A DNA stretch of 64,000 nt. Origin: Rickettsiales bacterium UBA6177 (GTDB lineage: Bacteria; Pseudomonadota; Alphaproteobacteria; Rickettsiales; UBA6177). The DNA lies in contig DITT01000029.1 of NCBI GenBank assembly GCA_002422875.1, positions 9,641 through 73,640 on the forward strand, read 5' to 3'. Made by a program: the position numbers and the translations under genes. Positions 8,590 through 29,918 of the stretch are shown here, piece by piece. The notes under the pieces were generated by a model. It was not told the DNA's origin, ran no database searches, and worked only from the letters and a program-made list of their open reading frames with translations. Positions within the stretch are counted from its first letter, which is position 1. The number at the start of each line of letters is the position of its first letter.

Positions 8590-10071
8590 TCAATTTAATT
8601 TTGTTTTTTTGTTAAATGGGTTCATAAAAATCAATATTGCTAAAGTTGGAACAATAAAATTAATTAAATTAGTAGTAATCATTAACTCAGCAACATTGTG
8701 ATAGTCGCCCCTTTTAATAATATATATCTCAGATAAAATTCTTGTTAAAATACGTGCTCCACCAACATATGCAAGACTCATTAAAGTCATTACGATAGCA
8801 AACCAATTAGCAGTATGTTTCTTTGGTGCATAATAAGTAGCAGCTGTGCATAAGACTAGAAAAGCAAATGTGCTAGTAGGAGCATTAATACCAGTATCAG
8901 CTATGCCAATTATAGATAATGTAAAAATTCCAATACCTAAATATTTCTCAGTGAAATGATGTAAGCCGTATGCCATACCAAGCATAGGTAATTGCATAAT
9001 ACAGTGAATTAGATTTAAAATTAAGAAGGTTTTGGCAATATTAATTTTAAGTATTTTCTTACCAAGGGTGAGAAGCAAAATAAAGCTTATAATAATAGTA
9101 AGTAATTTTAAAAATGAAATAATTTGAGGAGTAAAATGAAGTACATCAATTTGCCACCATTCAACTCCAGGGCCAAAATTTGGTGAACAGCGATAACAAA
9201 ATGTAACAAAAATAATACTTAAGATTTTCTTTCTATTTTCGGGTATAATTTCTTTTATCAATTTGTTAATGCCAAAAATTGAAACTATTACTCCAATAAA
9301 AAATAATATCTCTTGGCTATAAGCAATTCTAAAGAAGGAAAGAATTATTACAGCTAAAAAATAAATACCTGAGATAAACACCATTGAATAATCTTGTTCA
9401 AATTCTGGTATTTGAGGTTCTTTTCTTACGATTATAATACCAAATATTGCAATTAATGATACTAATGGCAGAAAGTAGCTAATTGTACCATATGAGAATT
9501 TTGTTGCAATATAACCTCCTATTAAAACTCCGAAGAATGAGCCTGTAGTATCAAATATTTTTGAGTAAAGCTGAACTAAATTTATTTCTTCATGAATATT
9601 ATCCTTGTCAATAGGAGTGCCATTGCTGCTTGTTTTTTTTACTACGTCATAACATAAAGTATCAGCTATAAGATCTTGTAAAACAACACCAGTAGTTACA
9701 AGTGCTCCAGAAAGACAAAGTAATTGAAAAATACTTAAAAAAGCAAAATTAATTTTATTATTAGCAATCATTATAATTACTATATTACCAAGTAAAATTA
9801 GAATATTTGCAATAAATACATATATATTTCTGTGACTGTTGAATATTTTGATATTATCAACAATTTGTCCAAAAATAATCTTCATCGACCATGGTAATCC
9901 TGACCAAATAGTAATAGAAATTATTTCTGAAGTAGTTAAAGATAGTGAGTTTTTAATCCAAAATAATTGCGCAATATCAGAGAAAACTATAAAAGAATTT
10001 GCAAAATAAATAGTGAGTATTGGTAAATAGGCAAGCTTAAAGTTACTCGACAGGTACCTTAGGTAATTCAT
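8590..10071 (-). CDS. BT1 (folate/biopterin transporter)-like MFS permease
   Basis: Polytopic membrane protein. SGLPWSMKIIFGQIVDNIKIF resembles the BT1 signature (lPWs.Kp.yG...D). Confidence 0.5.
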   Translation of the reverse strand: MNYLRYLSSNFKLAYLPILTIYFANSFIVFSDIAQLFWIKNSLSLTTSEIISITIWSGLPWSMKIIFGQIVDNIKIFNSHRNIYVFIANILILLGNIVIIMIANNKINFAFLSIFQLLCLSGALVTTGVVLQDLIADTLCYDVVKKTSSNGTPIDKDNIHEEINLVQLYSKIFDTTGSFFGVLIGGYIATKFSYGTISYFLPLVSLIAIFGIIIVRKEPQIPEFEQDYSMVFISGIYFLAVIILSFFRIAYSQEILFFIGVIVSIFGINKLIKEIIPENRKKILSIIFVTFCYRCSPNFGPGVEWWQIDVLHFTPQIISFLKLLTIIISFILLLTLGKKILKINIAKTFLILNLIHCIMQLPMLGMAYGLHHFTEKYLGIGIFTLSIIGIADTGINAPTSTFAFLVLCTAATYYAPKKHTANWFAIVMTLMSLAYVGGARILTRILSEIYIIKRGDYHNVAELMITTNLINFIVPTLAILIFMNPFNKKTKLN

Positions 10072-10828
10072 TTAATCTCCATAATTTTTTATATGTAGTA
10101 ATACTTAAAGGAATCGATAATAAGTAAATAGTTGCAAGTATAGGTAATGCAATCCATGGTTGGATGATTATAATTGCTACTGTAAATCCTACAATTACAA
10201 AAAATAAAGGTACGTAATCTTTAGTTATAACAATTTTTTTAGTTGAAAATGTAGGAATAGTGCTTACAAGCATTAGTGATAGAAAAATAGAATATGCACT
10301 TAATATGTAATTTAAATGATCAATTTCAAAATTAAAGCTAAAGTGCAACATCATTGGTGTAAGTAATAAGTATGCACCTGCTGGTGCTGGAATCCCTTGG
10401 AAGAAATTGGCTTTCCACTCATTTTGTTTTTCATCGAGCGGTTCATTATTAAATCTTGCAAGTCTAATAGACATACAAACAGCAAAAAGAAGCACGCAAG
10501 CCCAACCAAGGCCTGTCTCTGAATCATTACTCATATTCCATAAATATATGACTATTCCTGGAGCAACACCAAAATTTATGAAATCAGCAAGTGAGTCAAG
10601 ATATGCCCCAAAGCTACTCGTAGCTTTTAAAAACCTAGCTAATCTTCCATCAACTAGATCAAGAAAACCAGCGATTATAATTAATGATACTGCTATTTCC
10701 CATTTATCACTTAAGGCGTATCTAATAGAGGACAGCCCACAACATATAGAAGTTAAGGTTATAATATTAGGAAATAATTTGCTTAAAGAAAGTTTTCTTT
10801 CATGAGCTTTTTGGTTTTCGTCAAACAT
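10043..10828 (-). CDS. pssA: CDP-diacylglycerol--serine O-phosphatidyltransferase
   Basis: CDP-alcohol phosphatidyltransferase motif DLVDGRLARFLKATSSFGAYLDSLADFINFG. Lies immediately downstream of psd. Confidence 0.85.
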   Translation of the reverse strand: MFDENQKAHERKLSLSKLFPNIITLTSICCGLSSIRYALSDKWEIAVSLIIIAGFLDLVDGRLARFLKATSSFGAYLDSLADFINFGVAPGIVIYLWNMSNDSETGLGWACVLLFAVCMSIRLARFNNEPLDEKQNEWKANFFQGIPAPAGAYLLLTPMMLHFSFNFEIDHLNYILSAYSIFLSLMLVSTIPTFSTKKIVITKDYVPLFFVIVGFTVAIIIIQPWIALPILATIYLLSIPLSITTYKKLWRLNELPKVPVE

Positions 10829-10829
10829 A

Positions 10830-11561
10830 TTATCTTATTTCTGCTGTTCTTGTTTTGTTATCGTCCATATTTGCAATAATTGTTTCGCCACCTATTACTC
10901 TATGACCAACAAAAACTTGTGGTTTAACACCATCTGGCAAGTATACATCCATTCTACTACCAAATCTAATAATACCAAATCTTTCACCAGCTTTCACTTC
11001 TTGATTTGGCTTAACATAGCAAACTATTCGTCTTGCAATTAGTCCTGCAATTTGTGTAAATACTATCTGTTTACCATTTTTCATTTCCATTAGAATTTCT
11101 TGTCTTTCATTGTTAACACTCGCTTTATCTAGAGAAGCATTCAAAAACATACCATGATGATAATATGTTTCTTTAATAATACCATCTGCTGGAACTCTGT
11201 TAACATGCACATCAAATACACTTAGAAAAATACTAACACGAGTAGCTTTCTTTTGGCCATCAAACCCTAAAGTTTCAGGAAGAATTGCTTCTTGAATGCT
11301 AGTAACATAACCATCTGCTGGGCTAAGAATAAAGTTTTCGCCAATTACAGTGAATCTTTCAGGGTCTCTGAAAAAGAATATGATAAAGATATTAATTAAT
11401 ATCATTACAATAGCGAGCTTTGTTGAGAGAAAGCATAATAATATAGCTATTACTAGGCCAATCATTAAAAAGAAAATCCCTTCTTTGTGTATGCTCGGTA
11501 TTAGTGCTTTTAAATATTCCATAAATCTCTCAAGTATAATTTTTAAATATGAATTATACAC
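10830..11561 (-). CDS. psd: Phosphatidylserine decarboxylase proenzyme; the true start is probably the ATG at 11522 (MEYLK)
   Basis: Self-cleavage region GERFGIIRFGSRMDVYLP and an N-terminal TM anchor. The codon at 11561 is GTG. Confidence 0.9.
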   Translation of the reverse strand: MYNSYLKIILERFMEYLKALIPSIHKEGIFFLMIGLVIAILLCFLSTKLAIVMILINIFIIFFFRDPERFTVIGENFILSPADGYVTSIQEAILPETLGFDGQKKATRVSIFLSVFDVHVNRVPADGIIKETYYHHGMFLNASLDKASVNNERQEILMEMKNGKQIVFTQIAGLIARRIVCYVKPNQEVKAGERFGIIRFGSRMDVYLPDGVKPQVFVGHRVIGGETIIANMDDNKTRTAEIR

Positions 11562-11598
11562 TAACTTTTAGAAAAGGAAATTTTTTCTTTAAGTTATT
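11382..11598. repeat. Direct repeat DR1: psd 5' coding end plus upstream leader
   Basis: About 217 bp, near-identical to 13427-13642 (a handful of substitutions and one 1-nt indel, aligned by eye). Confidence 0.9.
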
Positions 11599-11702
11599 CT
11601 GATGAATTACCTAAAAAATACAAGAAGAAGAAATTAATTTGCAAGTTTTTATAGAAAAACTAGGCGTTATAGCAAATATATCTTTGTTATGCCTTCAAAA
11701 GC

Positions 11703-11918
11703 TTAATCTCTTGCGTCTCTAGCCATATTCGCATTTTCATTTACTATAGTGTGCAATACGTCAACAGGTATGCTATTCTCTGCTTTTTCCTGCTTTTGAT
11801 ATTGTTGAGATGACATGCCTGCAATCCTGGTAAGGTATTTTTGTGTAAATCTTTCAAGCTTACGGATTTGTTTTAATAGTTCGACTAGGGTTTTATAAAA
11901 TAGTGTCGTGTTTAGCCT
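11703..11918 (-). pseudogene. XRE-family helix-turn-helix gene remnant with no usable start codon
   Basis: The minus-strand frame reads ...LVELLKQIRKLERFTQKYLTRIAGMSSQQYQKQEKAENSIPVDVLHTIVNENANMARDARD*. This is the classic XRE HTH pattern. The frame opens directly after a TAA and has no ATG/GTG/TTG before the HTH. Confidence 0.4.
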
Positions 11919-11938
11919 TTAAAATAAATACAACTTTC

Positions 11939-12970
11939 TTAGTCTTTTTCATATTTTAAAGTTCTATGAATCATTTTTATATAATCATTCATAACCCTAT
12001 CTATTGATCGATACTTTAGCACAAGATCTCTTAAGGATTCATAATTTAAAATGTTTGATTGTTTATTTGAAAATCCAACAAAATTTCTATTCATGCAATC
12101 AATAAAATTAGATTTATTTAAAAAGCCATTATAGTTAATATGAGAAGAAACAAAGACAGGTAAACCTAATAATGATGCCTCAAGAACAACGTTTCCAACT
12201 CCACACACAAATCTATATTTATTTTGATTAAGATGCTCTAGCGTCTTAATTTTTCCAATAAAACAGTCATCTTTAAGGTCGAACTCTTTTTTTAATTGTT
12301 CTTTGACAGAATAGGAAAAGGCAGAAATTCCCGCAATTTCAAAATTACACCTTACAGATTTACAATATTTTATGGCCGTTCTTATTTGATCTAACTTATC
12401 AGGATCTAGTCTTGATATAATTATCGCCTTATTTTGTTTTTCGCGCTTATATAAAGAAAGTTTTACCTTATCAGGTATCATATTCGGGAAAATATCATAA
12501 TTCCCGGGAGCGTCTCTTTTACAAGTGTTAATAGAATTTACTGCATTGTACAAAGCCTTTTTAAAAAATTCATAAGTGATTCCATGGTTTTGAATCCCAC
12601 AATCCCATCTTTTCATAATCTTATTGTAATTGATAAACTTGTCTTTATGGCCGGTTATTTGAAACTCAATAAGAAAAGGATCTAGCCTATCACATATTTT
12701 AACAATCGTATGCGTTGTATTATAAGATCTAAAACAGATTTGAAAGACTTTAAATTTTGAAAATATAGACTTATTATTGCTTTCTATGTCTGTGATTAAG
12801 TTTATGTCATAGCCCTTTTTTTCAAGAAAAGAAAACATATTAGAAAGCTTTGTTTCAACCCCTCCACATTCCTTTATATTCCTAATGATATAAACCAATC
12901 GCTTTGATCCCCCATTATTTTTTATTTTCTGGGTTCTAAACACATTCTTTAAAGAATTTATAATTTTCAT
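11939..12970 (-). CDS. Putative GT-B (group 1-like) glycosyltransferase
   Basis: N-terminal YIIRNIKECGGVETKLSNM (GGxE-type motif) and C-terminal VCGVGNVVLEASLLGLPVFVSS (E-A-x3-G-x-P-V pattern), as seen in GT4-like enzymes. Weak, motif-level call only. Confidence 0.45.
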   Translation of the reverse strand: MKIINSLKNVFRTQKIKNNGGSKRLVYIIRNIKECGGVETKLSNMFSFLEKKGYDINLITDIESNNKSIFSKFKVFQICFRSYNTTHTIVKICDRLDPFLIEFQITGHKDKFINYNKIMKRWDCGIQNHGITYEFFKKALYNAVNSINTCKRDAPGNYDIFPNMIPDKVKLSLYKREKQNKAIIISRLDPDKLDQIRTAIKYCKSVRCNFEIAGISAFSYSVKEQLKKEFDLKDDCFIGKIKTLEHLNQNKYRFVCGVGNVVLEASLLGLPVFVSSHINYNGFLNKSNFIDCMNRNFVGFSNKQSNILNYESLRDLVLKYRSIDRVMNDYIKMIHRTLKYEKD

Positions 12971-12992
12971 CTAAAAACCCTTCTCAATCTTT

Positions 12993-13358
12993 TTAATTGT
13001 AAATACATAAACAAAGGCTTTGTTTATGTATTTTTTTAGTAACAGCTAAAAGCGAGCTTGAAAAAACTATATCCTCCACAATATTTATATATTTGGAGCA
13101 ATAAAGGGCGTGAGTCAATAAAGAACGTTTAAAGATAAACCGCCAAGGGGCGCAAGCGTCAAACATTTGCTTTTTAAAGTATCGATTATAAAGGATTTTA
13201 TCTTTATGATAAGAGAAGAAACAATCAAAGGCCAAAAAATCGGTGCTTGTATTTTTAGTGTATTTATTAAAGACGTTAAAAATGACGGTGGTAATATAAA
13301 AACCGCCATAAACAAACCAGTATATAAATCCCGCAAAAGCCAAAATCAACATAATCAA
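12993..13358 (-). pseudogene. Possible 5'-truncated GT2-type glycosyltransferase fragment; otherwise hypothetical
   Basis: APWRFIFKRSLL...NIVEDIVFSSSLL...CLCIYN resembles the post-DxD part of GT-A/GT2 catalytic domains. No nucleotide-binding or DxD part is present. The ORF runs up to the DR2 junction. Confidence 0.25.
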
Positions 13359-13426
13359 TGCCCCTTAATTCATAGTATAATTTAAAAAAGTTAGTTTCTT
13401 CCTGTTTGCTTTCAAAAACACAATAC

Positions 13427-13642
13427 GATAAAGATATTAATTAATATCATTACAATAGCGAGCTTCGTTGAGAGAAAGCATAATAATACAGCTATTACCA
13501 AAACAATCTTAAAAAGAAAATCCCTTCTTTGTGGATGCTCGGTATTAGTGCTTTTAAATATTCCATAAATCTCTCAAGTATAATTTTTAAATATGAATTA
13601 TAAAATAACTTTTAGAAAAGGAAATTTTTTCTTTAAGTTATT
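13427..13642. repeat. Direct repeat DR2: decayed second copy of the psd 5' end
   Basis: Near-identical to 11382-11598. The duplicated psd start reads MEYLKALIPSIHKEGIFFLRLFW* because a 1-nt deletion causes an early stop. Confidence 0.9.
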
Positions 13643-13745
13643 TTATCTCAAGACATAAATAACTAAGAATTAGAGATAAATATGTATTTGCATTTATTAT
13701 GATTTTTGATTGAGGTTTAGCTAAAACTATAATGCATTCATAAGG

Positions 13746-14144
13746 TTAATCTACTTTACATAAATTACAATGACCTGATAGTTCATAAATGTGATGTTTT
13801 AAATTGAAGTTATTCTTTTTATAAAAATTATCTAACTGATGAAGCATATTATGGTCTTCAAGCTCTTCAACCTTTAAACATTTACTGCATGTTAGAATAA
13901 TATGTTTTACGGAGTGATCATGATGGCTAGAGTTATTATTGCACATAGTAAAAATATTTGAGCTTTGTATTTTGTGTAGGATACCATTTTCAACAAGTAA
14001 ATTTAGTATACGGTAAACAGTATTAGGTTTTATTGAAGGTTTAGTTTTTGAGAGTATATCAATAACATCATAAGCTTTGAGGCTATTATTATTTTCTTTA
14101 AAAATAGACAATATTTCATTTCTTAGAGGGGTGATATTGATCAT
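13746..14144 (-). CDS. zur: Fur-family metalloregulator, Zur-like
   Basis: Winged-helix N-terminal region (TVYRILNLLVENGILHK), an HHDH cluster, and two CxxC pairs (CSKC, CNLC). Confidence 0.8.
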   Translation of the reverse strand: MINITPLRNEILSIFKENNNSLKAYDVIDILSKTKPSIKPNTVYRILNLLVENGILHKIQSSNIFTMCNNNSSHHDHSVKHIILTCSKCLKVEELEDHNMLHQLDNFYKKNNFNLKHHIYELSGHCNLCKVD

Positions 14145-14230: not shown

Positions 14231-14247
14231 ATGTTACGTTGTAACAT
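14231..14247. promoter_or_regulatory. Candidate Zur/Fur operator in the divergent promoter region
   Basis: Perfect inverted repeat ATGTTAC-GTT-GTAACAT, containing the TGTTA/TAACA half-sites typical of Zur boxes. Lies 27 bp upstream of the 14274 ATG and just downstream of a TTGACT at 14213. Confidence 0.45.
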
Positions 14248-14273: not shown

Positions 14274-14864
14274 ATGAATGATTTAGAAAATAAAAAACCT
14301 AGTAATGAATTATCAAATTCACTCAACGAGTTTGCAGATGCTACAAATATACCAATTGAATCTAATCACAAAGTAGCAGATATTGATAGTAATAATTATG
14401 GACTATATGCCTCTTATTATGCAACAGGAATTGTTGCTCATTGTGTAGGTTATATGACAGAGCTTACTAGTAATTATGCTCTAAGAAGATGGTTTCCTGA
14501 GAGCAATAATAAATGGTTATTCTTTGTTGTTGGTAAGATTATGCATGAAGGAGTAGAAAACATGATTAGCTCTGGAAGTATTATTAATTTAATGAATTTA
14601 GAGAGCTTTCAAGATAGCTTGCTAGGCGCATTAAAACCAATCTATGCAAAACCAGGGCAATTTCTATCTGCTGCAGTTTTTTCATATTCAGCAGAAAAGC
14701 TACTTGGAGATTATATGTATTCAGAGCATAACCACGGTCATGGTGAAGGTTTCCACAATCAATGTCACGGACACCATCCTACTGAAATTGCTTTAACAGC
14801 TTTGATTTCAGTAGTAGGTACTACAATTGGTATTGATATTTATGATTATTTTTTTGAAGGCTAA
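14274..14864 (+). CDS. Hypothetical membrane protein with a C-terminal His/Cys cluster; putative metal-binding protein and Zur target
   Basis: Several hydrophobic segments plus the cluster SEHNHGHGEGFHNQCHGHHPTE. Divergent from the Fur-family gene, with the palindrome between them. Confidence 0.5.
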   Translation: MNDLENKKPSNELSNSLNEFADATNIPIESNHKVADIDSNNYGLYASYYATGIVAHCVGYMTELTSNYALRRWFPESNNKWLFFVVGKIMHEGVENMISSGSIINLMNLESFQDSLLGALKPIYAKPGQFLSAAVFSYSAEKLLGDYMYSEHNHGHGEGFHNQCHGHHPTEIALTALISVVGTTIGIDIYDYFFEG

Positions 14865-14913: not shown

Positions 14914-15663
14914 TTAACCTTTTCCCTCTTTGCTAAGTAAGCTTTCATTAAAAATACAACCAACTTCACTACCTCTTCTAATAGTGTATTTAGAAGAAAT
15001 ACGATGAATTACAATATACCTTCCTTTGATTGAAAAATTAACAATACCTTCTGTATTATCTGGATAAACAACGTAAAATGCAGGTAATTCTTGGGTGTTT
15101 TTATCATATTCAATATATGTATGTACGCCATCATCAAATATTTTTACTGGTGCAATTGATTCATCACCACTAATAGTATAGTTATAATTTTTACTATTAT
15201 CATCTATTTCAAAAGCATCAGTATCATCATTACCTGCAAGTTCAGCGCCATTCTCATCTTCTGGATAAAGGAATTTGACAGAGAAAACCATATTGGGATC
15301 ATTAATACTTTTTGCATAATTTGCATGTAATTCAAAATGATACACTCTCTTATTAGTAATAACAGTCATGTTAGTTGTTGCATCATTCTCAATTGGTTTG
15401 ATAAACAGGCGATTTGCATTCGGAACAATTTGCCATGCTACAGAATCACCCATAGTAAGAGAACTTATAGTTTCATCTGGTGCAAAAACTATACTCGACT
15501 CATAGCCATAAAATCCGATATATTTAAAAACATCATTAGGATTATATACAATGACCCTTAATCTTTGATCTGTAGGTAGTGGTCGTGCTTCACGAATAGC
15601 CCAAGCTGTTTGGGCATTTAAGGAATGAAAGATAAATAAAAAAGCTAAAAATACTTTTTTCAT
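14914..15663 (-). CDS. virB9: Type IV secretion system protein VirB9
   Basis: Signal peptide, the N-terminal domain (RVIVYNPNDVFKYIGFYGYESSIVF...VAWQI...LFIKP...TTNMTVITNKRVYHFEL) and the C-terminal domain (KIFDDGVHTYIEY...). Confidence 0.9.
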   Translation of the reverse strand: MKKVFLAFLFIFHSLNAQTAWAIREARPLPTDQRLRVIVYNPNDVFKYIGFYGYESSIVFAPDETISSLTMGDSVAWQIVPNANRLFIKPIENDATTNMTVITNKRVYHFELHANYAKSINDPNMVFSVKFLYPEDENGAELAGNDDTDAFEIDDNSKNYNYTISGDESIAPVKIFDDGVHTYIEYDKNTQELPAFYVVYPDNTEGIVNFSIKGRYIVIHRISSKYTIRRGSEVGCIFNESLLSKEGKG

Positions 15664-15698
15664 AATGATTTCCTATAATTGATAATCATATTAAATTA

Positions 15699-16394
15699 TT
15701 AGTTGAATGTTTTTGCAAGATATTTAGTAACTTTGAAGTCAATAATTTTATCATTATTATTTAAAAGTTGCTCTATATCACTAAAACTATAAAAAATTTC
15801 TGCTTTACCCTTTTGAATCTGAACCTGATTTTTAAGAATAATACTCTTTTCAAAGTCAACAACAGCAATTTTCTCATTAACCTTCTTGCTCTCTTTAAAG
15901 TTAGTAGCTATTACTTTTACAGTGCTAATAAACTTTGTACCATAGATTAATAAGGGACTATCTTCATTATCTATACTAATGTTTTTTAGATATTTATTAT
16001 ATTCTTCAGTAGAAGAGTGATTTTTTATATAAACATCTTTATCTCCTTGTTCGCTTAATTTAAAAGACTCTCTATTTTCAAGATATTCTGTAACAAGCTG
16101 TTTCTCAAGAGCAAGTTGCGGAGAAATATTAATAGGTAATGTATTAATATAGCTATATGTATTATCAATATCATTGTTATAAGATAGAAATGATATTTGA
16201 TTAGTGTATGAGCTTATATTGCTTGCATATAAAAATGCAATACCAGCTGCAAGCGCAAGTATAGATCCTATAACGACTATAAAAGTTCTCTCAACATGAG
16301 GCCCTACGAATTTGTCTAAATACCATCTTCTAGCATCAATAAAATATTGACCAGAGTTTATAGATTTTGCTATTGCTTTGTTGGCTTCATTCAT
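15699..16394 (-). CDS. virB8: Type IV secretion system protein VirB8
   Basis: Bitopic protein: a cytoplasmic N-terminus (YFIDARRWY), one TM segment and an NTF2-like periplasmic domain of the right length. Sits directly upstream of virB9. Confidence 0.8.
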   Translation of the reverse strand: MNEANKAIAKSINSGQYFIDARRWYLDKFVGPHVERTFIVVIGSILALAAGIAFLYASNISSYTNQISFLSYNNDIDNTYSYINTLPINISPQLALEKQLVTEYLENRESFKLSEQGDKDVYIKNHSSTEEYNKYLKNISIDNEDSPLLIYGTKFISTVKVIATNFKESKKVNEKIAVVDFEKSIILKNQVQIQKGKAEIFYSFSDIEQLLNNNDKIIDFKVTKYLAKTFN

Positions 16395-17853: not shown

Positions 17854-18663
17854 TTACTGTATATATATGCCTGTATAATCTGGGTTATAAATTTTAAAAT
17901 CATGTTTTATATTCATGATGGTTTCAGATGATCCTAAAAAAAGAACACCATGAGGGTCTAATATAGTCTTTAAAGAAGATAAAGCAGCTTCTTTATTTTT
18001 AGAGTCAAAATAGATTAAAACATTACGGCAAAAAATAATATCGAATTTTTCATAAAAATTAAGTTTTGCTAGTAAATTGGCTTGTTTAAATTTTACTAAA
18101 TGTAGAATATCATTTTTAAGCTGCCAGTCCTTATCAACTTGAATAAAATATTTAAGCAATAGTTGGATAGGAAGGCCTCTTTGTACTTCAAATTGTGAGA
18201 AAATTCCTTTTTCAGCTCTTTTTACAACACTTGCATTAATATCTGATGCCAAAATATTAAATAGATGGGCTTTATCAGGAAAATTTTCTTTAATTAACAT
18301 AGCAATTGAATAAGGTTCTTGGCCACTTGAACAGGCAGCACACCAAATTCTAATTTTTTGATTAGGTTTTCTCAAAAGTAAATTAGGTATTACTTCATTT
18401 TTTAAAATATCAAAAGGATTTCTATCCCTAAAAAAAGATGACTCATTAGTTGTCATTAACTCAATCATTGAATTTATTAAATCAGGTGAACGAGTAAGTT
18501 TTATGTGTGTAATTAATTCGTCAACACTATCACAACTCTTAGTTTTAGCTAAAGGTATTAATCTTGCTTCAAGCAAGTAGCTTTTTTCTTTGCAAATAGA
18601 TATTCCTGATAAGGCTTCAATAGTTTCGCATGCATATTTTAGATTTTGTGGGCTGATATTCAT
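17854..18663 (-). CDS. cheR: Chemotaxis protein methyltransferase CheR
   Basis: N-terminal helical domain and a SAM-binding fold (IRIWCAACSSGQEPYSIAM, IFCRNVLIYF). Confidence 0.9.
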   Translation of the reverse strand: MNISPQNLKYACETIEALSGISICKEKSYLLEARLIPLAKTKSCDSVDELITHIKLTRSPDLINSMIELMTTNESSFFRDRNPFDILKNEVIPNLLLRKPNQKIRIWCAACSSGQEPYSIAMLIKENFPDKAHLFNILASDINASVVKRAEKGIFSQFEVQRGLPIQLLLKYFIQVDKDWQLKNDILHLVKFKQANLLAKLNFYEKFDIIFCRNVLIYFDSKNKEAALSSLKTILDPHGVLFLGSSETIMNIKHDFKIYNPDYTGIYIQ

Positions 18664-19787
18664 TTGCTACCATTTTTTATTATAAAATTTGCTATTTCAT
18701 TTAAAGGTAGTACAGCAGAGCACAAATTGTTAACAGCAACATTACCTGGCATCCCCCATACGATGCTTGATGTTTCATCTTGTGCGATTACACTGCTACC
18801 CATCATTACAGCAGCTTTAGATCCTTCTAAAGCATCCTTACCCATTCCGGTGAGTACAATTGTAATCATTTTATCCTTGAAAATACTAGCTGCAGATTCA
18901 ATCATTGGGTCAGCAGATGGTTTGCAGAAATTAATAGCTGGACCATTATCTAGAGTTATACAAGCTTTCCTAGCTTTAAGAGTAATCTTCATGTGAATAT
19001 TGCCTGGTGCAATATATAAATTACCCTCAGTAAGTATTTCTCCATCTTGAGCTTCTTTACATTTTATTATACCTAGCTTATCAAGATTTTCTGCAAATAG
19101 TTTAGTAAATAAAACTGGCATATGCTGGGTAATAATAATTATTTTATTAGCAAGGTAGTTTGCACCAAAGCTAACCAATAAGTCACTTATAGCTTTTGGT
19201 CCACCAGTTGAAGAGGCAATAGCTAAAATTTTTGGTTCAAAGTTAATAGGTCGATCTGTTCTAAGTACTATATCACTAGATAATAATCTGTATGTTAGTG
19301 CGCTGCTTAAATGATTATTACACTGATCAATACTTGATAAAGGAGGAGAGATATAAGAATTATAAGTCTTTTTAGCGATATTTTTAATTTTAGCAATTAA
19401 ATTATCTTGAAATGCATTACCATTTGTCATGGTATTTGAATCTGGTTTTTCAATATAATCAACAGCACCAAGAGTTAATGCTTTAATTGCAATAGGTGCA
19501 TTCTTAGTGGTTAATGTTGAAACCATAAAGATTTTGATATTGCTATCTTTGTTTAAAATATGAGGGATAGCTTCAATACCGTTCATTCCAGGCATTTCAA
19601 TGTCGAGTAATAAAACATCTGCAACTATATTATCCATTGCTCGTAGTAAGCTTTCTGCAGAATGGTATAAACCAACTATTTCGATATTATCATCCTTAGT
19701 TATAATTCTTTTTAAAACACTTCTAACAACTAGTGAATCGTCAACAATCATAACTCGTATTTTGGAATTATTTGGCAAATCTTTCAT
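18660..19787 (-). CDS. cheB: Chemotaxis response regulator protein-glutamate methylesterase CheB
   Basis: REC domain (VMIVDDS...LLLDIEMPGMNG) plus an esterase domain (IASSTGGP, ITQHMP, AQDETSSIVWGMPG). Confidence 0.9.
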   Translation of the reverse strand: MKDLPNNSKIRVMIVDDSLVVRSVLKRIITKDDNIEIVGLYHSAESLLRAMDNIVADVLLLDIEMPGMNGIEAIPHILNKDSNIKIFMVSTLTTKNAPIAIKALTLGAVDYIEKPDSNTMTNGNAFQDNLIAKIKNIAKKTYNSYISPPLSSIDQCNNHLSSALTYRLLSSDIVLRTDRPINFEPKILAIASSTGGPKAISDLLVSFGANYLANKIIIITQHMPVLFTKLFAENLDKLGIIKCKEAQDGEILTEGNLYIAPGNIHMKITLKARKACITLDNGPAINFCKPSADPMIESAASIFKDKMITIVLTGMGKDALEGSKAAVMMGSSVIAQDETSSIVWGMPGNVAVNNLCSAVLPLNEIANFIIKNGSK

Positions 19788-20152
19788 GTCAAGATGCCTG
19801 TTTGAATAAATTTAGATCTAATAAGTTCAAGATCAAAAGGTTTCATGATATATTCATCAGCACCAGCATCCATTGCTTCTTTAATTTTTGGGAAATCATT
19901 TTCACTAGTACAAAAAATTATTTTTACACCAGTGTTTTTAGGATTTTTTCTAAATTCTTTTATAAAAGCAAGGCCATCCATAATTGGCATATTCCAATCA
20001 AGTAAAATACAGTCTGGTTTGATTTGTTCGCATAATTCTAGAGCTTCTTTACCGTCTGCAGCCTCTTTTACTTCAAAGCCAAGTTGTATTAACATAGCTG
20101 AAACAAGCTTTCTTACTACTTTTGAATCGTCAACGGTTAAGCATATTTTCAT
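19784..20152 (-). CDS. cheY: Single-domain response regulator CheY
   Basis: 122 aa, with TVDDS...LLDWNMPIMDG...KIIFCTS...YIMKPF. Confidence 0.85.
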   Translation of the reverse strand: MKICLTVDDSKVVRKLVSAMLIQLGFEVKEAADGKEALELCEQIKPDCILLDWNMPIMDGLAFIKEFRKNPKNTGVKIIFCTSENDFPKIKEAMDAGADEYIMKPFDLELIRSKFIQTGILT

Positions 20153-20175
20153 ATAAATTTCCTATTAGAATTTAA

Positions 20176-20637
20176 TCAAGTTAAAAGAAGATCAAATAAT
20201 TTTTTTATATCTATTACGACTATTAATTCATCTTTGCCTAAAATAATACCTGTAGCAATATTATGCCAATGTTGCTCTATACTATCAGGTTTAGGCAAGA
20301 TCTCATTTTCAGTTATAGAAATTACCTCTTCTACAGAATCAGCAATAATACTATATAAATCATTCTTGATTTCGATTACTACATTCATGCTATTCTCGCA
20401 AATAGAGGTATCATCCATTTTTAGAAGATTTTTAATATTAATAGCTGTAACTATCCTACCTCTTAAATTAATTAGGCCGATGATTGTATCAGGAGCAAGT
20501 GGCACTTTAGTCACTTTACTTAGGACCAGAATATCACGAATATTAACGATAGGGATTGCTATAGTTTGCTTATTAATTTTCATTTTCAGAAGTCTCTGTA
20601 TAGGCGCAGGATTAAAATTTGTATTAACTTCGCTCAT
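20176..20637 (-). CDS. cheW: Chemotaxis coupling protein CheW
   Basis: 153-aa single CheW-like domain (IAIPIVNIRDIL...LINLRGRIVTAI...LIVVIDIKKL). Confidence 0.85.
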   Translation of the reverse strand: MSEVNTNFNPAPIQRLLKMKINKQTIAIPIVNIRDILVLSKVTKVPLAPDTIIGLINLRGRIVTAINIKNLLKMDDTSICENSMNVVIEIKNDLYSIIADSVEEVISITENEILPKPDSIEQHWHNIATGIILGKDELIVVIDIKKLFDLLLT

Positions 20638-20649
20638 TAGTTATTATCC

Positions 20650-23253
20650 CTAATCTATAATTTCAGATAAATGTTTTAGTATGTCATGATGGTTTGTTTT
20701 TGCCACGCAATATAAAATGCCATGTTCAATAGCTTCCTGCATTTTCCTTTCTTCATTAGTTGATGTAAGAGCAATTATAGGAATTTTATTAAATTTAGTG
20801 TCGTTTTTACAAAATTGAGCAAATTCTATACCAGACATTTTAGGCATATTGATATCAGTTATGATAGCCTTTATTTGTTGAGTGGTATTTTTTTGCATAA
20901 ATTCAATAGCGCTAAGAGCACTTTCAAAAGCGATAACTTCTTTTTCTAAATGACTTAAAGAAGGGGGAATAAATTTTCTAAAAAAAATACTATCATCAAC
21001 GTAAATAATAACTTCTTTATTATTTTCATTAACCAAATTTTTAGTATTATCTCCTTCTTCGGAATAAAAAGATTGGAATAATTCACCTACATTTACAATA
21101 TCCATTGTTTTTTCATGAATAACAACTGCATTATGGGAGAAATAATTTATATCATTATTTATTTCTATGGTAACTGCATCCACTATTTCCTTAACAATTA
21201 AACCAAGAATCGATTCTTTATTATTAAAGACTACTACTTGAAGCTCGCCATGTTCTGGATATATGAGTTGATCACTAATTTTTAATAGAGGCATCAAAGT
21301 ACCGCGATATTGTACAACCTCTTGGTTATTTGATACTTCAATAGAATCTACGTTTATTTCTTCTAACCTTGAAACGATTTCAAGAGGAATAGCCTTATGA
21401 GTGTTATTATCTGATTTAACAACAAGGAAAGTTATAGTATTCTCAATATTATTTTTAGCTTTTGTAAGGGTATCTTCATTGTGTTCTTGATAGTTTTCAG
21501 TGAGGCAAATAGTTTTAAACAAACCTACTGGGTCAAGAATCATAATAACCTTGCCATTTCCTAAAATAGTATTCCCAGAATAAAGGCCAATCTTCATTAG
21601 GGATTCTACAATAGGTTTTACAACTATTTCTTCGCTGTCAAAGACTTTATCAACAATTATACCAAAATTATTGCCACTTATTTCACAAATTACTACGTAT
21701 GAAGTTTTGTTCTCAATAATCTCACTATGAGGTAACGCAAATAGTTTAGTTAAATCGACTATAGGTAATAAATTATCCCTAATTCTGAGTAGGTAGCTTT
21801 CGTTAATTTTTTCAATTTTATTTTCTTCATTTTTGCCTGCTTTACAAATCTCAAGAACATTTATTTGAGGTATCGCTAGATTTTCACCACCTGCTTCAAT
21901 AATTAATACTGGCATAATTGCAAGCGTAAGAGGTATTTTGATTGTAAAAACTGAGCCTTTCCCAGTAACTGATTTAAGATCGACACTGCCATTTATTTTG
22001 TTGATATTGTTTTTGACTACATCCATACCAACACCTCTTCCTGAAACCGCAGTAACAGTAGTAGCTGTGGAGAAGCCAGCTCTGAAAATATATTGAATAA
22101 TTTGCACTTCGCTCATCTGCGCTACTTGCTCAGCATTAGCAAGCTTACTGGTAATTATTTTTTCTTTTACTCTCTCAATATTAATGCCTCGACCATCATC
22201 TGAAATTTCAATAATAATATGACCACCTTGATGGAAGGCTTTTAGCACTATAGTTCCAGATTCGTTTTTACCTTGTTCAATCCTTTCTTGGGGTAGTTCA
22301 AGGCCATGATCTGCAGAGTTTCTAATCATATGAATTAGAGGGTCTTTAATAGATTCAATTAACTGCCTATCAAGCTCGGTTTCTTCGCCGACCATTTTTA
22401 AAATTATTTTTTTATCAAGTTCTTTAGCGAGATCTCTGATCATGCGTGGCAATTTAGTCCAAGCACTACTTATAGGCTGCATTCTGGTTTTCATAATACC
22501 TTCTTGCAGCTGTGAAGTAATATGACTGAGGTTTTGTATAGAGTTACTAAATTGAGTATTATTATTGCCTCTATTGAGCTGTAGTAATTGATTTCTGTTT
22601 AAAACAAGCTCCCCTACTATCTGCATTAAATTTTCAAGCACATCTATGCTTACTCTTATAGTATGGTTTTCAGACTTAGAGTTTATTTGAACAGCACTGC
22701 TAGCAACTTGATTTGCTTCCTTGGTTAAATTATTCTCAGGAGAGTTTGCTGGTTTTGTTGGTTGCGCTGTTGAAACTTCAGGGATAGTCTTGAGAGGCGT
22801 ATCAAAAATTGTAGTAATATCAGTATCTGATTTTAAAGAATCATCATCTGTTGTAGCGATTGTGTCTTCTAGAATATTTCCTTTGGCTGCCTCATTTAGT
22901 CTAAAAATAAGGTTGTCATCTTTGCCTTCTGGCTCGGAACCATTTGCTTCAATTGCTACAATTATTTCCTTAATTTTATCAACGCACTCAAGGATAAGTG
23001 AAACAATATCACCGTTAACAATTAGTTGGTTACTACGAATTTTATCCATAATATTTTCGCCGGCATGAGCAACAGACTCAAGCCTTGAGAGCGCTAAAAA
23101 GCCACATGTGCCTTTTATAGTATGCATAATTCTAAAAATGCTACCTAGTAACTCTTTATCATTAGGGTTTTGTTCTAGACTAACAAGTTGATTATCAAGA
23201 TTATCTAATCCTTCTTTTGTTTCTGCTAAAAAATCTGAAATTAGATCATCCAT
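20650..23253 (-). CDS. cheA: Hybrid chemotaxis histidine kinase CheA: Hpt, dimerization, HATPase, two CheW-like domains, C-terminal REC
   Basis: Hpt HTIKGTCGFLAL; catalytic core HMIRNSADHG, DDGRGI, GRGVGMDVV; two consecutive CheW-like segments; a terminal receiver (IIYVDDS...AIITDINMPKMSG...IIALTS). Confidence 0.92.
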   Translation of the reverse strand: MDDLISDFLAETKEGLDNLDNQLVSLEQNPNDKELLGSIFRIMHTIKGTCGFLALSRLESVAHAGENIMDKIRSNQLIVNGDIVSLILECVDKIKEIIVAIEANGSEPEGKDDNLIFRLNEAAKGNILEDTIATTDDDSLKSDTDITTIFDTPLKTIPEVSTAQPTKPANSPENNLTKEANQVASSAVQINSKSENHTIRVSIDVLENLMQIVGELVLNRNQLLQLNRGNNNTQFSNSIQNLSHITSQLQEGIMKTRMQPISSAWTKLPRMIRDLAKELDKKIILKMVGEETELDRQLIESIKDPLIHMIRNSADHGLELPQERIEQGKNESGTIVLKAFHQGGHIIIEISDDGRGINIERVKEKIITSKLANAEQVAQMSEVQIIQYIFRAGFSTATTVTAVSGRGVGMDVVKNNINKINGSVDLKSVTGKGSVFTIKIPLTLAIMPVLIIEAGGENLAIPQINVLEICKAGKNEENKIEKINESYLLRIRDNLLPIVDLTKLFALPHSEIIENKTSYVVICEISGNNFGIIVDKVFDSEEIVVKPIVESLMKIGLYSGNTILGNGKVIMILDPVGLFKTICLTENYQEHNEDTLTKAKNNIENTITFLVVKSDNNTHKAIPLEIVSRLEEINVDSIEVSNNQEVVQYRGTLMPLLKISDQLIYPEHGELQVVVFNNKESILGLIVKEIVDAVTIEINNDINYFSHNAVVIHEKTMDIVNVGELFQSFYSEEGDNTKNLVNENNKEVIIYVDDSIFFRKFIPPSLSHLEKEVIAFESALSAIEFMQKNTTQQIKAIITDINMPKMSGIEFAQFCKNDTKFNKIPIIALTSTNEERKMQEAIEHGILYCVAKTNHHDILKHLSEIID

Positions 23254-29165: not shown

Positions 29166-29918
29166 TTGATTTATATCAATAAAAATTTTATGTATATCAT
29201 TATGGAAAATGCAAAGATAGCATATAGAGAAGATAAAACTATATCGCAAGTAGCTTATTTTAGACAAAATAGTAATACTTCTTTAAATCAACTTCATATT
29301 TATAGAGAAAATGGTAAAGATATAGAGCAAGTATTAGCTTTTAGAATAGATGGCACATTAGAGCAGGCACGTATTTATACAAAGAATGGTATGTTCTTAG
29401 AGAGGGATATATTTTATAGAGAAGATGGCAAGACTATAGAGCAAATTTATATTTATAAAAAAGACAGTCGTTTTATAGATAAAAAAATATTTTATAGAGA
29501 AGATGGCAAAACTATAGATCAAATTCATTTTTGTAATGGAATAAATGATAAAATATATTTAGGTAATGTCTATAGAGAAGATGGTCAAACTTTAAAAGAA
29601 ACTCATTTTTATAAAGATGATGGTAAAACTATAGAGAAAAAAACATTATATAAAGATGATGGTAAAACTATAGACCAAATTCATTTTTATAATGGAAACA
29701 ACTCTTCTCCTGTAAAAGCTGAGTTTTATAAAGCAGATGGCTTAACCAAAATACAAGCCAAATATTTTAAAGAAGGAACTGATCATCTTGATAATACAGT
29801 ATGTTATAAACAGGATGGTAAAAATATAGGAGCGACCCTTTATTATGCTGATGATGGAAGCTTAAAACAAGTTGTGTTAGGAGAGTCAGCAGACAACAAT
29901 CATAATGTTTTTGAATAA
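29166..29918 (+). CDS. Tandem-repeat protein with about 17 copies of a 12-13-aa (F/Y)Y(R/K)xDGKTIxQ(I/V) unit; the start is probably ATG 29190 or 29202
   Basis: Periodic motif read directly: IFYREDGKTIEQI / YIYKKDSRFIDKK / IFYREDGKTIDQI / HFYKDDGKTIEKK / TLYKDDGKTIDQI and so on. A TTGACA at 29146 would put a promoter across the TTG at 29166. Confidence 0.6.
   Translation: MIYINKNFMYIIMENAKIAYREDKTISQVAYFRQNSNTSLNQLHIYRENGKDIEQVLAFRIDGTLEQARIYTKNGMFLERDIFYREDGKTIEQIYIYKKDSRFIDKKIFYREDGKTIDQIHFCNGINDKIYLGNVYREDGQTLKETHFYKDDGKTIEKKTLYKDDGKTIDQIHFYNGNNSSPVKAEFYKADGLTKIQAKYFKEGTDHLDNTVCYKQDGKNIGATLYYADDGSLKQVVLGESADNNHNVFE

What the first reader, a model, noticed from the sequence alone, without database searches (positions are those of the whole stretch)
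11382..13642. Glycosyltransferase mini-island bracketed by about 217-bp direct repeats that duplicate the psd 5' end
Seen: 11382-11598 and 13427-13642 are near-identical direct repeats. DR1 supplies the start and first roughly 47-60 codons of the intact psd. DR2 carries the same start, but a 1-nt deletion truncates it after 23 codons. The 1.83 kb between them holds a start-less XRE-HTH remnant, a 343-aa GT-B-like ORF, and a GT2-like fragment that ends at the DR2 junction. There is no integrase or transposase. Established: integrative elements that target the end of a gene carry a replacement copy of that end, which generates long direct repeats (attL/attR). IS target-site duplications are far shorter. 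Inference: this is the decayed footprint of an integrative element or a duplication-mediated insertion. It displaced the original psd promoter region next to the zur gene.
Basis: partly seen in the sequence, partly recalled or inferred. Interest (0 to 1): 0.6.

Follow-up and report, generated by a model that had tools for sequence, protein, structure and literature searches.

The report
Glycosyltransferase islet inserted into psd start
A 1.8-kb piece of DNA carrying one sugar-transferase gene sits inside the start of the psd lipid-synthesis gene of an uncultured Rickettsia-like bacterium; it is flanked by two copies of that gene's start, is absent from a near-identical strain, and is an ordinary though well-documented case of gene gain or loss by recombination.

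Summary
DR1 (11382-11598) and DR2 (13427-13642) are 217/216-nt direct repeats with 9 substitutions and one 1-nt deletion. They are the only long dispersed repeat in the window. Each holds 77 nt upstream of psd plus psd codons 1-47. DR1 continues into an intact psd. DR2 is frameshifted and stops after 23 codons.

The 1,828 bp between them holds one intact GT-B/GT4-like glycosyltransferase, a weak start-less XRE-HTH remnant and 456 nt without detectable homology. The "GT2 fragment" is not supported. No recombinase is found anywhere in the 64 kb.

Two relatives at ~81% identity have zur next to psd with one copy. A Logan contig (L006) is identical to the window in both flanks and has a single copy and no island. 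That copy is DR2-type upstream and DR1-type downstream, so exchange occurred within a 68-nt identical block over the psd start codon. The coding differences between the repeats are mostly synonymous.

Best reading: a Campbell-type single crossover between chromosomal psd and a ~5% diverged psd 5' segment on incoming DNA, most likely by host homologous recombination. Direction (recent gain or recent repeat-mediated loss) is unresolved. This is a new member of a known kind, of modest interest.

The parts
11382..11598 (-). DR1: 77 nt upstream of psd (11523-11598) plus psd codons 1-47 (11382-11522). It is continuous with the intact psd.
   Evidence: The upstream SNPs at 11559/11561 (AGTGTAT) match the outgroups L009/L010 but not the empty-site contig L006.
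13427..13642 (-). DR2: the same 77 nt upstream (13567-13642) plus a frameshifted psd' stub (ATG 13566; 23-codon ORF 13495-13566).
   Evidence: Its upstream part is identical to L006. Its coding part differs from DR1 and L006 by 7 substitutions (5 synonymous) and one 1-nt deletion.
11491..11558 (-). 68-nt block identical in DR1 and DR2 (13535-13602 in DR2), spanning the psd start codon. This is the inferred crossover interval.
   Evidence: In L006 the variants switch from DR2-type to DR1-type across this block.
11599..13426 (-). Inserted segment (islet), 1,828 bp. GC is 29.4% against 29.9% for the window.
   Evidence: Absent from L006, L009 and L010. Present at 100% identity in L001, L002, L005 and L008. 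GC.
11939..12970 (-). Intact 343-aa GT-B (GT4-like) glycosyltransferase gene, co-oriented with psd.
   Evidence: 119 remote homologues, best 34% identity. It keeps all family-invariant residues. Family members match Glyco_transf_4 / Glycos_transf_1 weakly. AF2 mean pLDDT is 88. Top Foldseek hits are BshA, LPS glycosyltransferases and Rickettsia africae GT 7mi0.
11703..11918 (-). Start-less XRE-type HTH remnant: a 71-codon open frame whose only start codon is at residue 35.
   Evidence: translation. HTH_3 E=0.003, below cut-off. PHROG transcriptional regulators E=4e-4. RstR/HipB-like matches, weak.
12971..13426 (-). 456 nt without detectable homology.
   Evidence: no hits. (hairpin self-match).
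10830..11522 (-). psd (230 aa), intact, followed by pssA (10043-10828).
   Evidence: PF02666 E=6e-47, full profile; PF01066 for pssA.
13746..14144 (-). Fur-family regulator, best match Zur. It is the ancestral upstream neighbour of psd.
   Evidence: PF01475; Zur E=3e-26, below the equivalog cut-off. Adjacent to psd in L006, L009 and L010.

Best explanation
A 1,828-bp islet lies inside the 5' end of psd in an uncultured, AT-rich, Rickettsiales-like endosymbiont. It carries one intact GT4-like glycosyltransferase gene plus non-coding debris.

The structure is that of a Campbell-type (insertion-duplication) event. Incoming DNA carried a roughly 217-bp copy of the psd promoter-proximal region and first 47 codons, taken from a lineage about 5% diverged. 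That copy underwent one reciprocal exchange with the chromosomal psd, inside a 68-nt identical block over the start codon.

The result has two halves. On the zur side, the native upstream region is fused to the foreign psd 5' stub (DR2, now frameshifted), followed by the island. On the psd side, the foreign upstream region is fused to the native psd (DR1), which stays intact and keeps a proximal upstream region.

The island has no recombinase. The exchange is therefore most likely done by the host's homologous recombination system (inferred). The same repeats allow precise loss. The GT gene is co-oriented with psd and lies downstream of the native psd upstream region, so it is probably read from it (inferred). 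The likely phenotype is strain-variable surface-glycan modification (inferred).

Shown: the repeats, the empty site, the chimeric variant pattern, the GT fold. Inferred: the enzyme that makes the crossover, the direction of the event (gain or loss), expression and function.
For: - Repeats and gene content.
- Ancestral zur-psd adjacency with one copy in relatives at ~81% identity (L009, L010).
- Empty site: L006 has 752/752 identical left flank and 434/436 identical from the repeat into psd. The only two mismatches are the DR2-type bases at 11559/11561. The single copy is therefore DR2-type upstream and DR1-type downstream, the reciprocal pattern a single crossover predicts.
- Each repeat half carries its own mix of ancestral and derived states against the outgroups. 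AGTGTAT and GGC are ancestral in DR1; GTA at codon 27 is ancestral in DR2. This fits two diverged alleles rather than one decaying copy.
- DR1 versus DR2 coding: 5 synonymous and 2 non-synonymous differences, pN/pS 0.11, binomial P=0.007. The non-synonymous changes are conservative (G->V, I->V), and V27 is the residue seen in related psd proteins. Most divergence therefore arose while both copies were functional genes.
- No integrase or transposase in the island or the window.
- A ComEC-type DNA-uptake protein is encoded in the window.
- The GT is intact and GT-B-folded. Its one remote homologue with readable context sits between two GT2 genes in a glycan-type cluster.
Against: - The empty site rests on one short (1,188-nt) k=31 Logan contig from a sample that appears to have low coverage. 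A mis-join across the 68-nt identical block in an island-bearing genome would produce the same chimeric pattern. I judge this unlikely, because both island arms would also have to be lost from the graph, and in SRR5323106 the contigs do break at the repeats. Reads were not available to check.
- The same three sequences fit an older insertion followed by recent repeat-mediated deletion.
- The synonymous excess rests on 7 substitutions, and several cannot be polarised.
- No donor lineage carrying the DR2-type psd allele, and no other copy of the island, was found in any collection.
- recA is not in the window, so the host's recombination ability was not checked.
Confidence: 0.5

Rival explanations
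1. Old insertion, recent loss. The island and its repeats were formed long ago by the same kind of crossover, possibly with initially identical repeats. DR2 then decayed in place (2 upstream changes, up to 7 coding changes, a frameshift). L006 is a recent precise deletion by homologous recombination between DR2 and DR1 within the 68-nt identical block.
For: - A deletion product would have exactly the chimeric copy seen in L006, with flanks identical to the window.
- The island looks worn: a start-less HTH, 456 nt of debris and a frameshifted psd'.
- Its GC equals the host's.
- Deletion between 217-bp repeats that share a 68-nt identical block is mechanistically easy (established knowledge of RecA-dependent recombination).
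Against: - The coding differences between DR1 and DR2 are biased toward synonymous and conservative changes, which is not expected for a stub decaying neutrally. By my own rough estimate, not a tool result, the likelihood ratio against this reading is about 4-8.
- It needs about 10 extra mutations plus a second event.
- The island is seen only in sequences 100% identical to each other, and no diverged carriers were found.
Confidence: 0.28
2. Site-specific integrative element. The repeats are attL/attR of a prophage-like or island-like element that targets the psd 5' end and carries a replacement 5' end. Its integrase has been deleted or acts in trans from elsewhere in the genome.
For: - Replacement of the target-gene end with a slightly diverged, mostly synonymous copy is the classical signature of such elements. 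Examples are e14 or phage 21 in icd, and SXT in the prfC 5' end (own knowledge).
- An XRE-type repressor remnant lies next to one end.
- A palindrome with 20-nt arms and a 7-nt spacer sits at the outer edge of the repeat (I16).
Against: - No integrase, excisionase or transposase in the island or in 64 kb.
- No similarity to phages, viral contigs or plasmids.
- The L006 variant pattern places the exchange downstream of the palindrome, inside plain homology.
- If the gain was recent, the element was already only 2 kb and recombinase-free on arrival.
Confidence: 0.15
3. Assembly artefact: the two repeat copies or the island placement result from mis-assembly.
For: The source is a metagenome assembly, and repeats are classical mis-assembly sites.
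Against: - The repeats differ at 10 positions, so no identical block exceeds 68 nt. A k=141 assembly resolves them.
- JGI contigs independently cross DR2 and DR1.
- The k=31 contigs of SRR5323106 end exactly 30 nt inside the repeat edges, as expected for a true two-copy structure.
Confidence: 0.02

Closest known systems
Laboratory insertion-duplication (Campbell-type) integration of a non-replicating circle carrying a promoter plus 5' gene fragment
   Same: The product has the same topology. The cloned homology is duplicated as direct repeats around the insert. The upstream copy is truncated at the end of the fragment. The downstream copy is complete and keeps the upstream region carried by the fragment. 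The event is reversible by recombination between the repeats. Variants are exchanged reciprocally at the crossover.
   Different: This is a natural event in an uncultured endosymbiont. The homology is about 5% diverged. The origin of the circle or fragment is unknown.
Integrative elements that replace the end of their target gene: e14 and phage 21 in icd (3' end), SXT/R391 in prfC (5' end, supplying a new promoter and 5' coding sequence). Recalled from own knowledge.
   Same: The element carries a diverged, largely synonymous copy of the target-gene end, so the gene stays functional and a pseudo-copy is left at the other junction. As with SXT, the 5' end and upstream region are supplied.
   Different: No integrase or excisionase. 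The element is only 1.8 kb. The exchange maps to a 68-nt homology block rather than a defined short core. No phage or ICE genes are present.
Minimal mobile elements / genomic islets exchanged by homologous recombination after DNA uptake, as described in Neisseria (own knowledge)
   Same: A small, recombinase-free cassette present or absent between conserved chromosomal genes. It is moved by host homologous recombination. A ComEC-type uptake protein is encoded in the window.
   Different: Those elements use two different flanking genes as homology arms and do not create direct repeats. Here one homology segment is duplicated.
GT4-family GT-B glycosyltransferases (BshA, LPS core/O-antigen glycosyltransferases, Rickettsia africae GT 7mi0)
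   Same: A two-Rossmann-domain fold with TM-score 0.57-0.68 to these structures, and the conserved ...GxGxxxLEAxxxGxP... segment.
   Different: Sequence identity is only 11-18%. Pfam scores are below the gathering cut-off. The first Glu of the canonical E-x7-E motif is not present in this family (my reading of the sequence against the consensus). The substrate is unknown.

Membership tests
Site-specific integrative element (prophage / ICE / IME-type island with attL/attR) | Encodes its own integrase or recombinase | tested here: not met
   No recombinase domain in any island ORF or frame. None in the 64-kb window.
Site-specific integrative element (prophage / ICE / IME-type island with attL/attR) | Direct repeats at both ends and an empty site with one copy in related genomes | tested here: met
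   DR1 and DR2. Single copy in L006, L009 and L010.
Site-specific integrative element (prophage / ICE / IME-type island with attL/attR) | Exchange at a fixed short core flanked by recombinase-binding inverted repeats | tested here: inconclusive
   The exchange maps to the 68-nt block 11491-11558. The palindrome at the outer edge (13600-13646) lies outside that interval according to L006. Only one event is available.
Site-specific integrative element (prophage / ICE / IME-type island with attL/attR) | Excised circular form | not testable with these tools
   Needs reads or PCR.
Campbell-type (insertion-duplication) homologous integration | The insert is flanked by a direct duplication of a chromosomal segment; the upstream copy is truncated and the downstream copy is complete | tested here: met
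Campbell-type (insertion-duplication) homologous integration | Reciprocal chimeric distribution of sequence variants between the two repeats relative to the empty site | tested here: met
   L006 is DR2-type at 11559/11561 and DR1-type at all 7 coding differences and the indel. Caveat: this rests on a single k=31 contig.
Campbell-type (insertion-duplication) homologous integration | Host homologous-recombination machinery (RecA) present | not tested
   recA is not in the window. The rest of the genome was not available.
IS element / transposon | Transposase, terminal inverted repeats, short (2-14 bp) target-site duplication | tested here: not met
   No transposase. The duplication is 217 bp. 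No terminal inverted repeats at the island ends.
GT-B fold glycosyltransferase (GT4-like) | Two Rossmann-like domains with a GT-B topology | tested here: met
   AF2 mean pLDDT 88, pTM 0.87. 271 PDB matches at E<=1e-3, and the best matches are GT-B enzymes, mostly GT4-type.
GT-B fold glycosyltransferase (GT4-like) | Pfam Glycos_transf_1 / Glyco_transf_4 match at the curated cut-off | tested here: not met
   19 bits against a cut-off of 26.4. About a third of the 30 family members match weakly, best E=2e-6.
GT2 (GT-A) glycosyltransferase fragment (121-aa ORF) | Detectable similarity to GT2 profiles or proteins | tested here: not met
   No hit in Pfam at E<=10, PHROGs or NCBIfam. No homologue other than itself. 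BLASTP against a GT2 gives E=3.7.
XRE-family HTH regulator (remnant) | HTH_3 domain at the curated cut-off and a usable start codon | tested here: inconclusive
   HTH_3 scores 18 bits against a cut-off of 23, E=0.003. PHROG regulators E=4e-4. The only start codon falls in the middle of the HTH.

The most novel reading that the evidence does not exclude
The islet is a recombinase-free, self-addressing mobile cassette. Its 217-bp mimic of the promoter and 5' end of an essential gene acts as a homology 'address label'. Through this label the 2-kb unit loops out and re-inserts by host RecA, possibly after ComEC-mediated uptake. It restores the essential gene each time and hijacks the gene's native promoter to express a surface-glycan-modifying enzyme. 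This would be a reversible, transferable switch among co-infecting Rickettsiales strains.
Probability: 0.08. Interest if true: 0.6.

Novelty: new member of a known kind. Interest (0 to 1): 0.3.

Why it matters
This is a clean natural example of recent gene gain or loss in an obligate-intracellular-type genome. Such genomes are usually thought of as closed and slowly eroding. Here occupied and empty alleles, an inferred crossover interval and outgroups are all in hand. It shows that a single accessory glycosyltransferase can be added to or removed from such a genome without any dedicated recombinase, while an essential lipid-synthesis gene stays intact. If the GT alters a surface glycan, this is a simple route to strain-level surface variation. 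In itself the mechanism is textbook recombination, so the finding is of local rather than general importance.

Tried and rejected
- Genome-contig scan with psd gave only a 41%-identity psd in an unrelated MAG.
- Two metagenome-contig scans found nothing: the 35-nt repeat core and the psd protein. That collection evidently does not hold JGI 3300001605.
- A search for a donor-lineage psd N-terminus of DR2 type found only two irrelevant fragments and missed even the known relatives.
- Cluster look-ups for the island's small ORFs and for the L006 partial psd found no variants.
- Island DNA against plasmids and phages, and the GT family against viral contigs, gave no match. PHROGs gave only the weak HTH hits. 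I found no phage or plasmid link.
- The sigma-70 promoter and terminator scan was uninformative in this AT-rich DNA: 22 sites against 18.8 expected. The promoter statement therefore rests only on a conserved TATAAT/TATGAT at the same position in the relatives.
- Rfam found only three tRNAs, far from the site, so tRNA-targeted integration is rejected.
- The GT2-fragment idea was rejected.
- A literature search for psd as an attachment site found nothing relevant.
- The palindrome at the repeat's outer edge was considered as a recombinase core. L006 places the exchange downstream of it, so this is not favoured.
Full report
**1. Observation**

The window holds two direct repeats. DR1 is 11382-11598 (217 nt) and DR2 is 13427-13642 (216 nt). 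They differ by nine substitutions and one 1-nt indel, and their identical blocks are 39, 22, 9, 25, 68 and 37 nt. No other dispersed repeat of 50 nt or more exists in the 64 kb. The remaining repeat families are intragenic tandem repeats.

All genes here are on the minus strand, in the order zur (13746-14144), DR2, island, DR1/psd (10830-11522), pssA (10043-10828). The conserved psd start is the ATG at 11522, giving the 230-aa product called in public assemblies. It matches PF02666 over the full profile at E=6e-47. Each repeat therefore holds 77 nt of upstream sequence plus codons 1-47. In DR2 a 1-nt deletion in codon 20 leaves a 23-codon ORF, 13495-13566.

**2. Content of the 1,828-bp interval (11599-13426)**

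*The 343-aa ORF (11939-12970).* It has only a sub-threshold Pfam hit to Glycos_transf_1 (19 bits, cut-off 26.4). The word-indexed search of 5.8 billion proteins found only one other protein, at 25% identity. An exhaustive HMMER search of 1.84 billion cluster representatives found 119 relatives, the best at 34% identity, aligned over almost the full length.

In a 30-member alignment the window protein keeps every invariant residue. About a third of the members match Glyco_transf_4, Glyco_trans_1_4 or Glycos_transf_1. AlphaFold2 on that alignment gives mean pLDDT 88 and pTM 0.87. Foldseek against the PDB returns GT-B enzymes at the top, mostly GT4-type glycosyltransferases. These include BshA, LPS glycosyltransferases, the tll1591 glucosyltransferase and Rickettsia africae 7mi0 (TM 0.68). 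The gene is therefore an intact, divergent GT-B/GT4-like glycosyltransferase. The one homologue whose context I could read lies between two GT2 genes (L011), which looks like a glycan-synthesis setting.

*The HTH remnant.* Downstream of the GT, a 71-codon open frame (11703-11918) resembles XRE-type HTH regulators only weakly: HTH_3 E=0.003, PHROG regulators E=4e-4, and RstR/HipB-like matches. It has no start codon before residue 35, which lies in the middle of the HTH. It is a plausible remnant.

That ORF has no profile hit, no homologue and no similarity to a real GT2. Its 3' end is a perfect hairpin at 13001-13033. I treat this segment as non-coding debris.

*Other features.* Island GC is 29.4%, against 29.9% for the window. 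There is no integrase, transposase or tRNA nearby.

**3. Provenance and assembly**

The window is identical to an 89-kb ENA metagenome contig (ERZ27315062). The same proteins are also on a 185-kb NCBI contig.

JGI metagenome 3300001605 is surface water of the Syncrude Mildred Lake tailings pond (PMC5029510). It holds two contigs at 100% identity. One crosses DR2 into the GT (L005) and the other runs from the GT across DR1 into psd and pssA (L008).

In the Logan (k=31) assembly of SRR5323106 the island is a separate 1,888-nt contig covering 11569-13456. The psd-side contig starts at 11411. Both breaks lie exactly 30 nt inside the repeat edges, which is what a de Bruijn graph of a true two-copy structure gives. 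Mis-assembly is excluded for practical purposes.

The gene content includes a TLC ATP/ADP translocase, VirB8/VirB9, ankyrin proteins, a BT1 transporter and 30% GC. This points to a Rickettsiales-like endosymbiont, one that retains a chemotaxis cluster.

**4. Empty sites**

Two Logan contigs from relatives at ~81% nucleotide identity (L009, L010) have the zur 3' end directly followed by a single psd upstream region and psd. Neither has an island. The zur-psd adjacency is therefore ancestral, which refutes an ancient fixed duplication.

The key sequence is Logan contig L006 (SRR943326, 1,188 nt). It carries an identical zur. Its left flank matches the window 752/752. It has one repeat copy and continues into psd with 434/436 matches. 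The only two mismatches to DR1 are at 11559 and 11561, where L006 has the DR2 bases. At all seven coding differences and the indel it has the DR1 state.

The single copy is thus DR2-type upstream and DR1-type downstream. The switch falls within the 68-nt identical block 11491-11558, which contains the start codon. This is the reciprocal pattern expected from one crossover between the chromosomal site and a second, diverged copy. It applies equally to insertion into an L006-like genome and to deletion from a window-like genome.

**5. Gain or loss**

Against the outgroups, each repeat half has its own mix of states. DR1's upstream AGTGTAT and its GGC at codon 22 are ancestral. DR2's GTA at codon 27 is ancestral. 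ATTTTAT (DR2 and L006), GTT at codon 22 and the deletion (DR2), and ATA at codon 27 (DR1 and L006) are derived.

The 46 comparable codons differ by 5 synonymous and 2 non-synonymous changes. These include a double synonymous CTA/TTG, and the amino-acid changes are G->V and I->V. pN/pS is 0.11 and the binomial P is 0.007. V27 is the residue found in related psd proteins. This looks like divergence between two functional psd alleles in different lineages, not neutral decay of a stub.

I therefore favour the following. The incoming DNA carried a psd 5' segment from a lineage about 5% diverged, and L006 represents the never-occupied state. The alternative is an old insertion, in-place divergence and recent deletion between the repeats. 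It needs more events and fits the substitution pattern less well. By my own rough estimate, not a tool result, the likelihood ratio is 4-8. With seven substitutions, several of them unpolarised, the alternative remains quite possible.

**6. Mechanism**

The anatomy equals that of laboratory insertion-duplication. A circle, or a fragment with repeat arms, carries a gene's promoter and 5' part and integrates by one crossover. This leaves a truncated upstream copy and a complete downstream copy.

Nothing in the island or the window encodes a site-specific recombinase, and the exchange lies in plain homology. Host homologous recombination is therefore the most likely agent (inference; recA was not available to check). 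A ComEC-type competence protein at 60352-62397 (PF03772, E=5e-56) offers a possible uptake route (inference).

A site-specific enzyme acting in trans is not excluded. A palindrome with 20-nt arms and a 7-nt spacer sits at the outer edge of the repeat (13600-13646). L006, however, places the exchange downstream of it.

DR1 brings its own 77 nt of upstream sequence, including a TATAAT that is conserved in position as TATGAT in the relatives. The native copy next to zur now precedes the psd stub and the co-oriented GT, which has its own Shine-Dalgarno-like AGAAGGG. Expression of the GT from the psd upstream region is an inference. The consensus promoter scan is uninformative in this AT-rich DNA.

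**7. Caveat on L006**

L006 is a short contig from a k=31 assembly, and other window genes were not recovered intact from that sample. A jump across the 68-nt block in an island-bearing genome would create the same chimera.

For that to happen, both island arms would also have to be missing from the graph at the 37-nt and 39-nt blocks. In SRR5323106 the same assembler stops at exactly these places. I therefore put the chance that L006 is genuine at about 0.9 (my judgement, not a tool result). Read-level phasing is the decisive check.

**8. Comparison with known systems, and verdict**

The closest analogues are:
- Campbell-type insertion-duplication.
- Integrative elements that replace the end of their target gene, such as e14 or phage 21 in icd and SXT in the prfC 5' end (own knowledge).
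- Recombinase-free islets exchanged by homologous recombination.

The finding fails the defining test for a self-encoded integrative element, because it has no recombinase. It also fails the test for an IS or transposon. It meets the structural tests for homologous insertion-duplication.

No donor, no second copy and no phage or plasmid relative were found.

The finding is real and neatly documented: occupied allele, empty allele, outgroups and a crossover interval. It is an instance of a known process carrying an ordinary type of cargo. Interest is 0.3, and I classify it as a new member of a known kind.

Noticed in passing
window 14231-14247 (between zur, 13746-14144 minus, and the ORF at 14274-14864 plus): A perfect 7-3-7 palindrome, ATGTTAC-GTT-GTAACAT, lies in the divergent promoter region between the Zur-like regulator and a 196-aa ORF. 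That ORF has no Pfam family and a His-rich tail (HNHGHGEGFHNQCHGHH). This looks like a Zur operator with a zinc-related target gene.
   Followed up: no
window 60352-62397 (minus): A 681-aa ComEC/Rec2-type competence protein (PF03772 E=5e-56, plus DUF4131) in an endosymbiont-like genome. It is a possible DNA-uptake route, relevant to how foreign DNA could reach the psd site.
   Followed up: partly
window 17854-23253 (minus), with 33990-35522 and 14914-16394: A complete-looking cheA-cheW-cheY-cheB-cheR cluster sits next to fumC and virB8/virB9. The same genome has a TLC ATP/ADP translocase and large ankyrin-repeat proteins. This is a Rickettsiales-like organism that retains chemotaxis. It was recovered from an oil-sands tailings-pond surface-water metagenome (JGI 3300001605).
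   Followed up: partly
window 13600-13646 (and the shorter equivalent at the outer edge of DR1, about 11556-11600): An imperfect palindrome with 20-nt arms and a 7-nt spacer (AATTTCC) lies exactly at the upstream boundary of the repeat. The two SNPs that distinguish DR1 from DR2 upstream shorten it in DR1. It could be an operator or promoter element of psd, or a recombinase site.
   Followed up: partly
window 13001-13033: A perfect 33-nt hairpin followed by a T-run on the plus strand, lying inside the 3' end of the 121-aa ORF. This suggests the ORF is not a real gene.
   Followed up: no
window 29337-29775 and 46050-46775: Five tandem 78-nt repeats lie inside ORF 29166-29918 (no Pfam hit on record). 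Six to seven 99-nt ankyrin-repeat units lie inside the 1,023-aa ankyrin protein (44061-47132). That ankyrin gene also breaks the k=31 assembly of SRR5323106.
   Followed up: no
window 30036-32768 (plus): A 907-910-aa ORF with no Pfam hit on record, conserved in the JGI and Logan assemblies of the same organism.
   Followed up: no
window 11559-11561 (minus strand, upstream of psd): The AGTGTAT variant in DR1, shared with the ~81% relatives, creates an in-frame GTG 13 codons upstream of the conserved ATG. ORF finders therefore call a 243-aa psd here, and 241-aa products in the relatives. The empty-site allele (ATTTTAT) lacks this GTG, which argues that the ATG at 11522 is the true start.
   Followed up: partly
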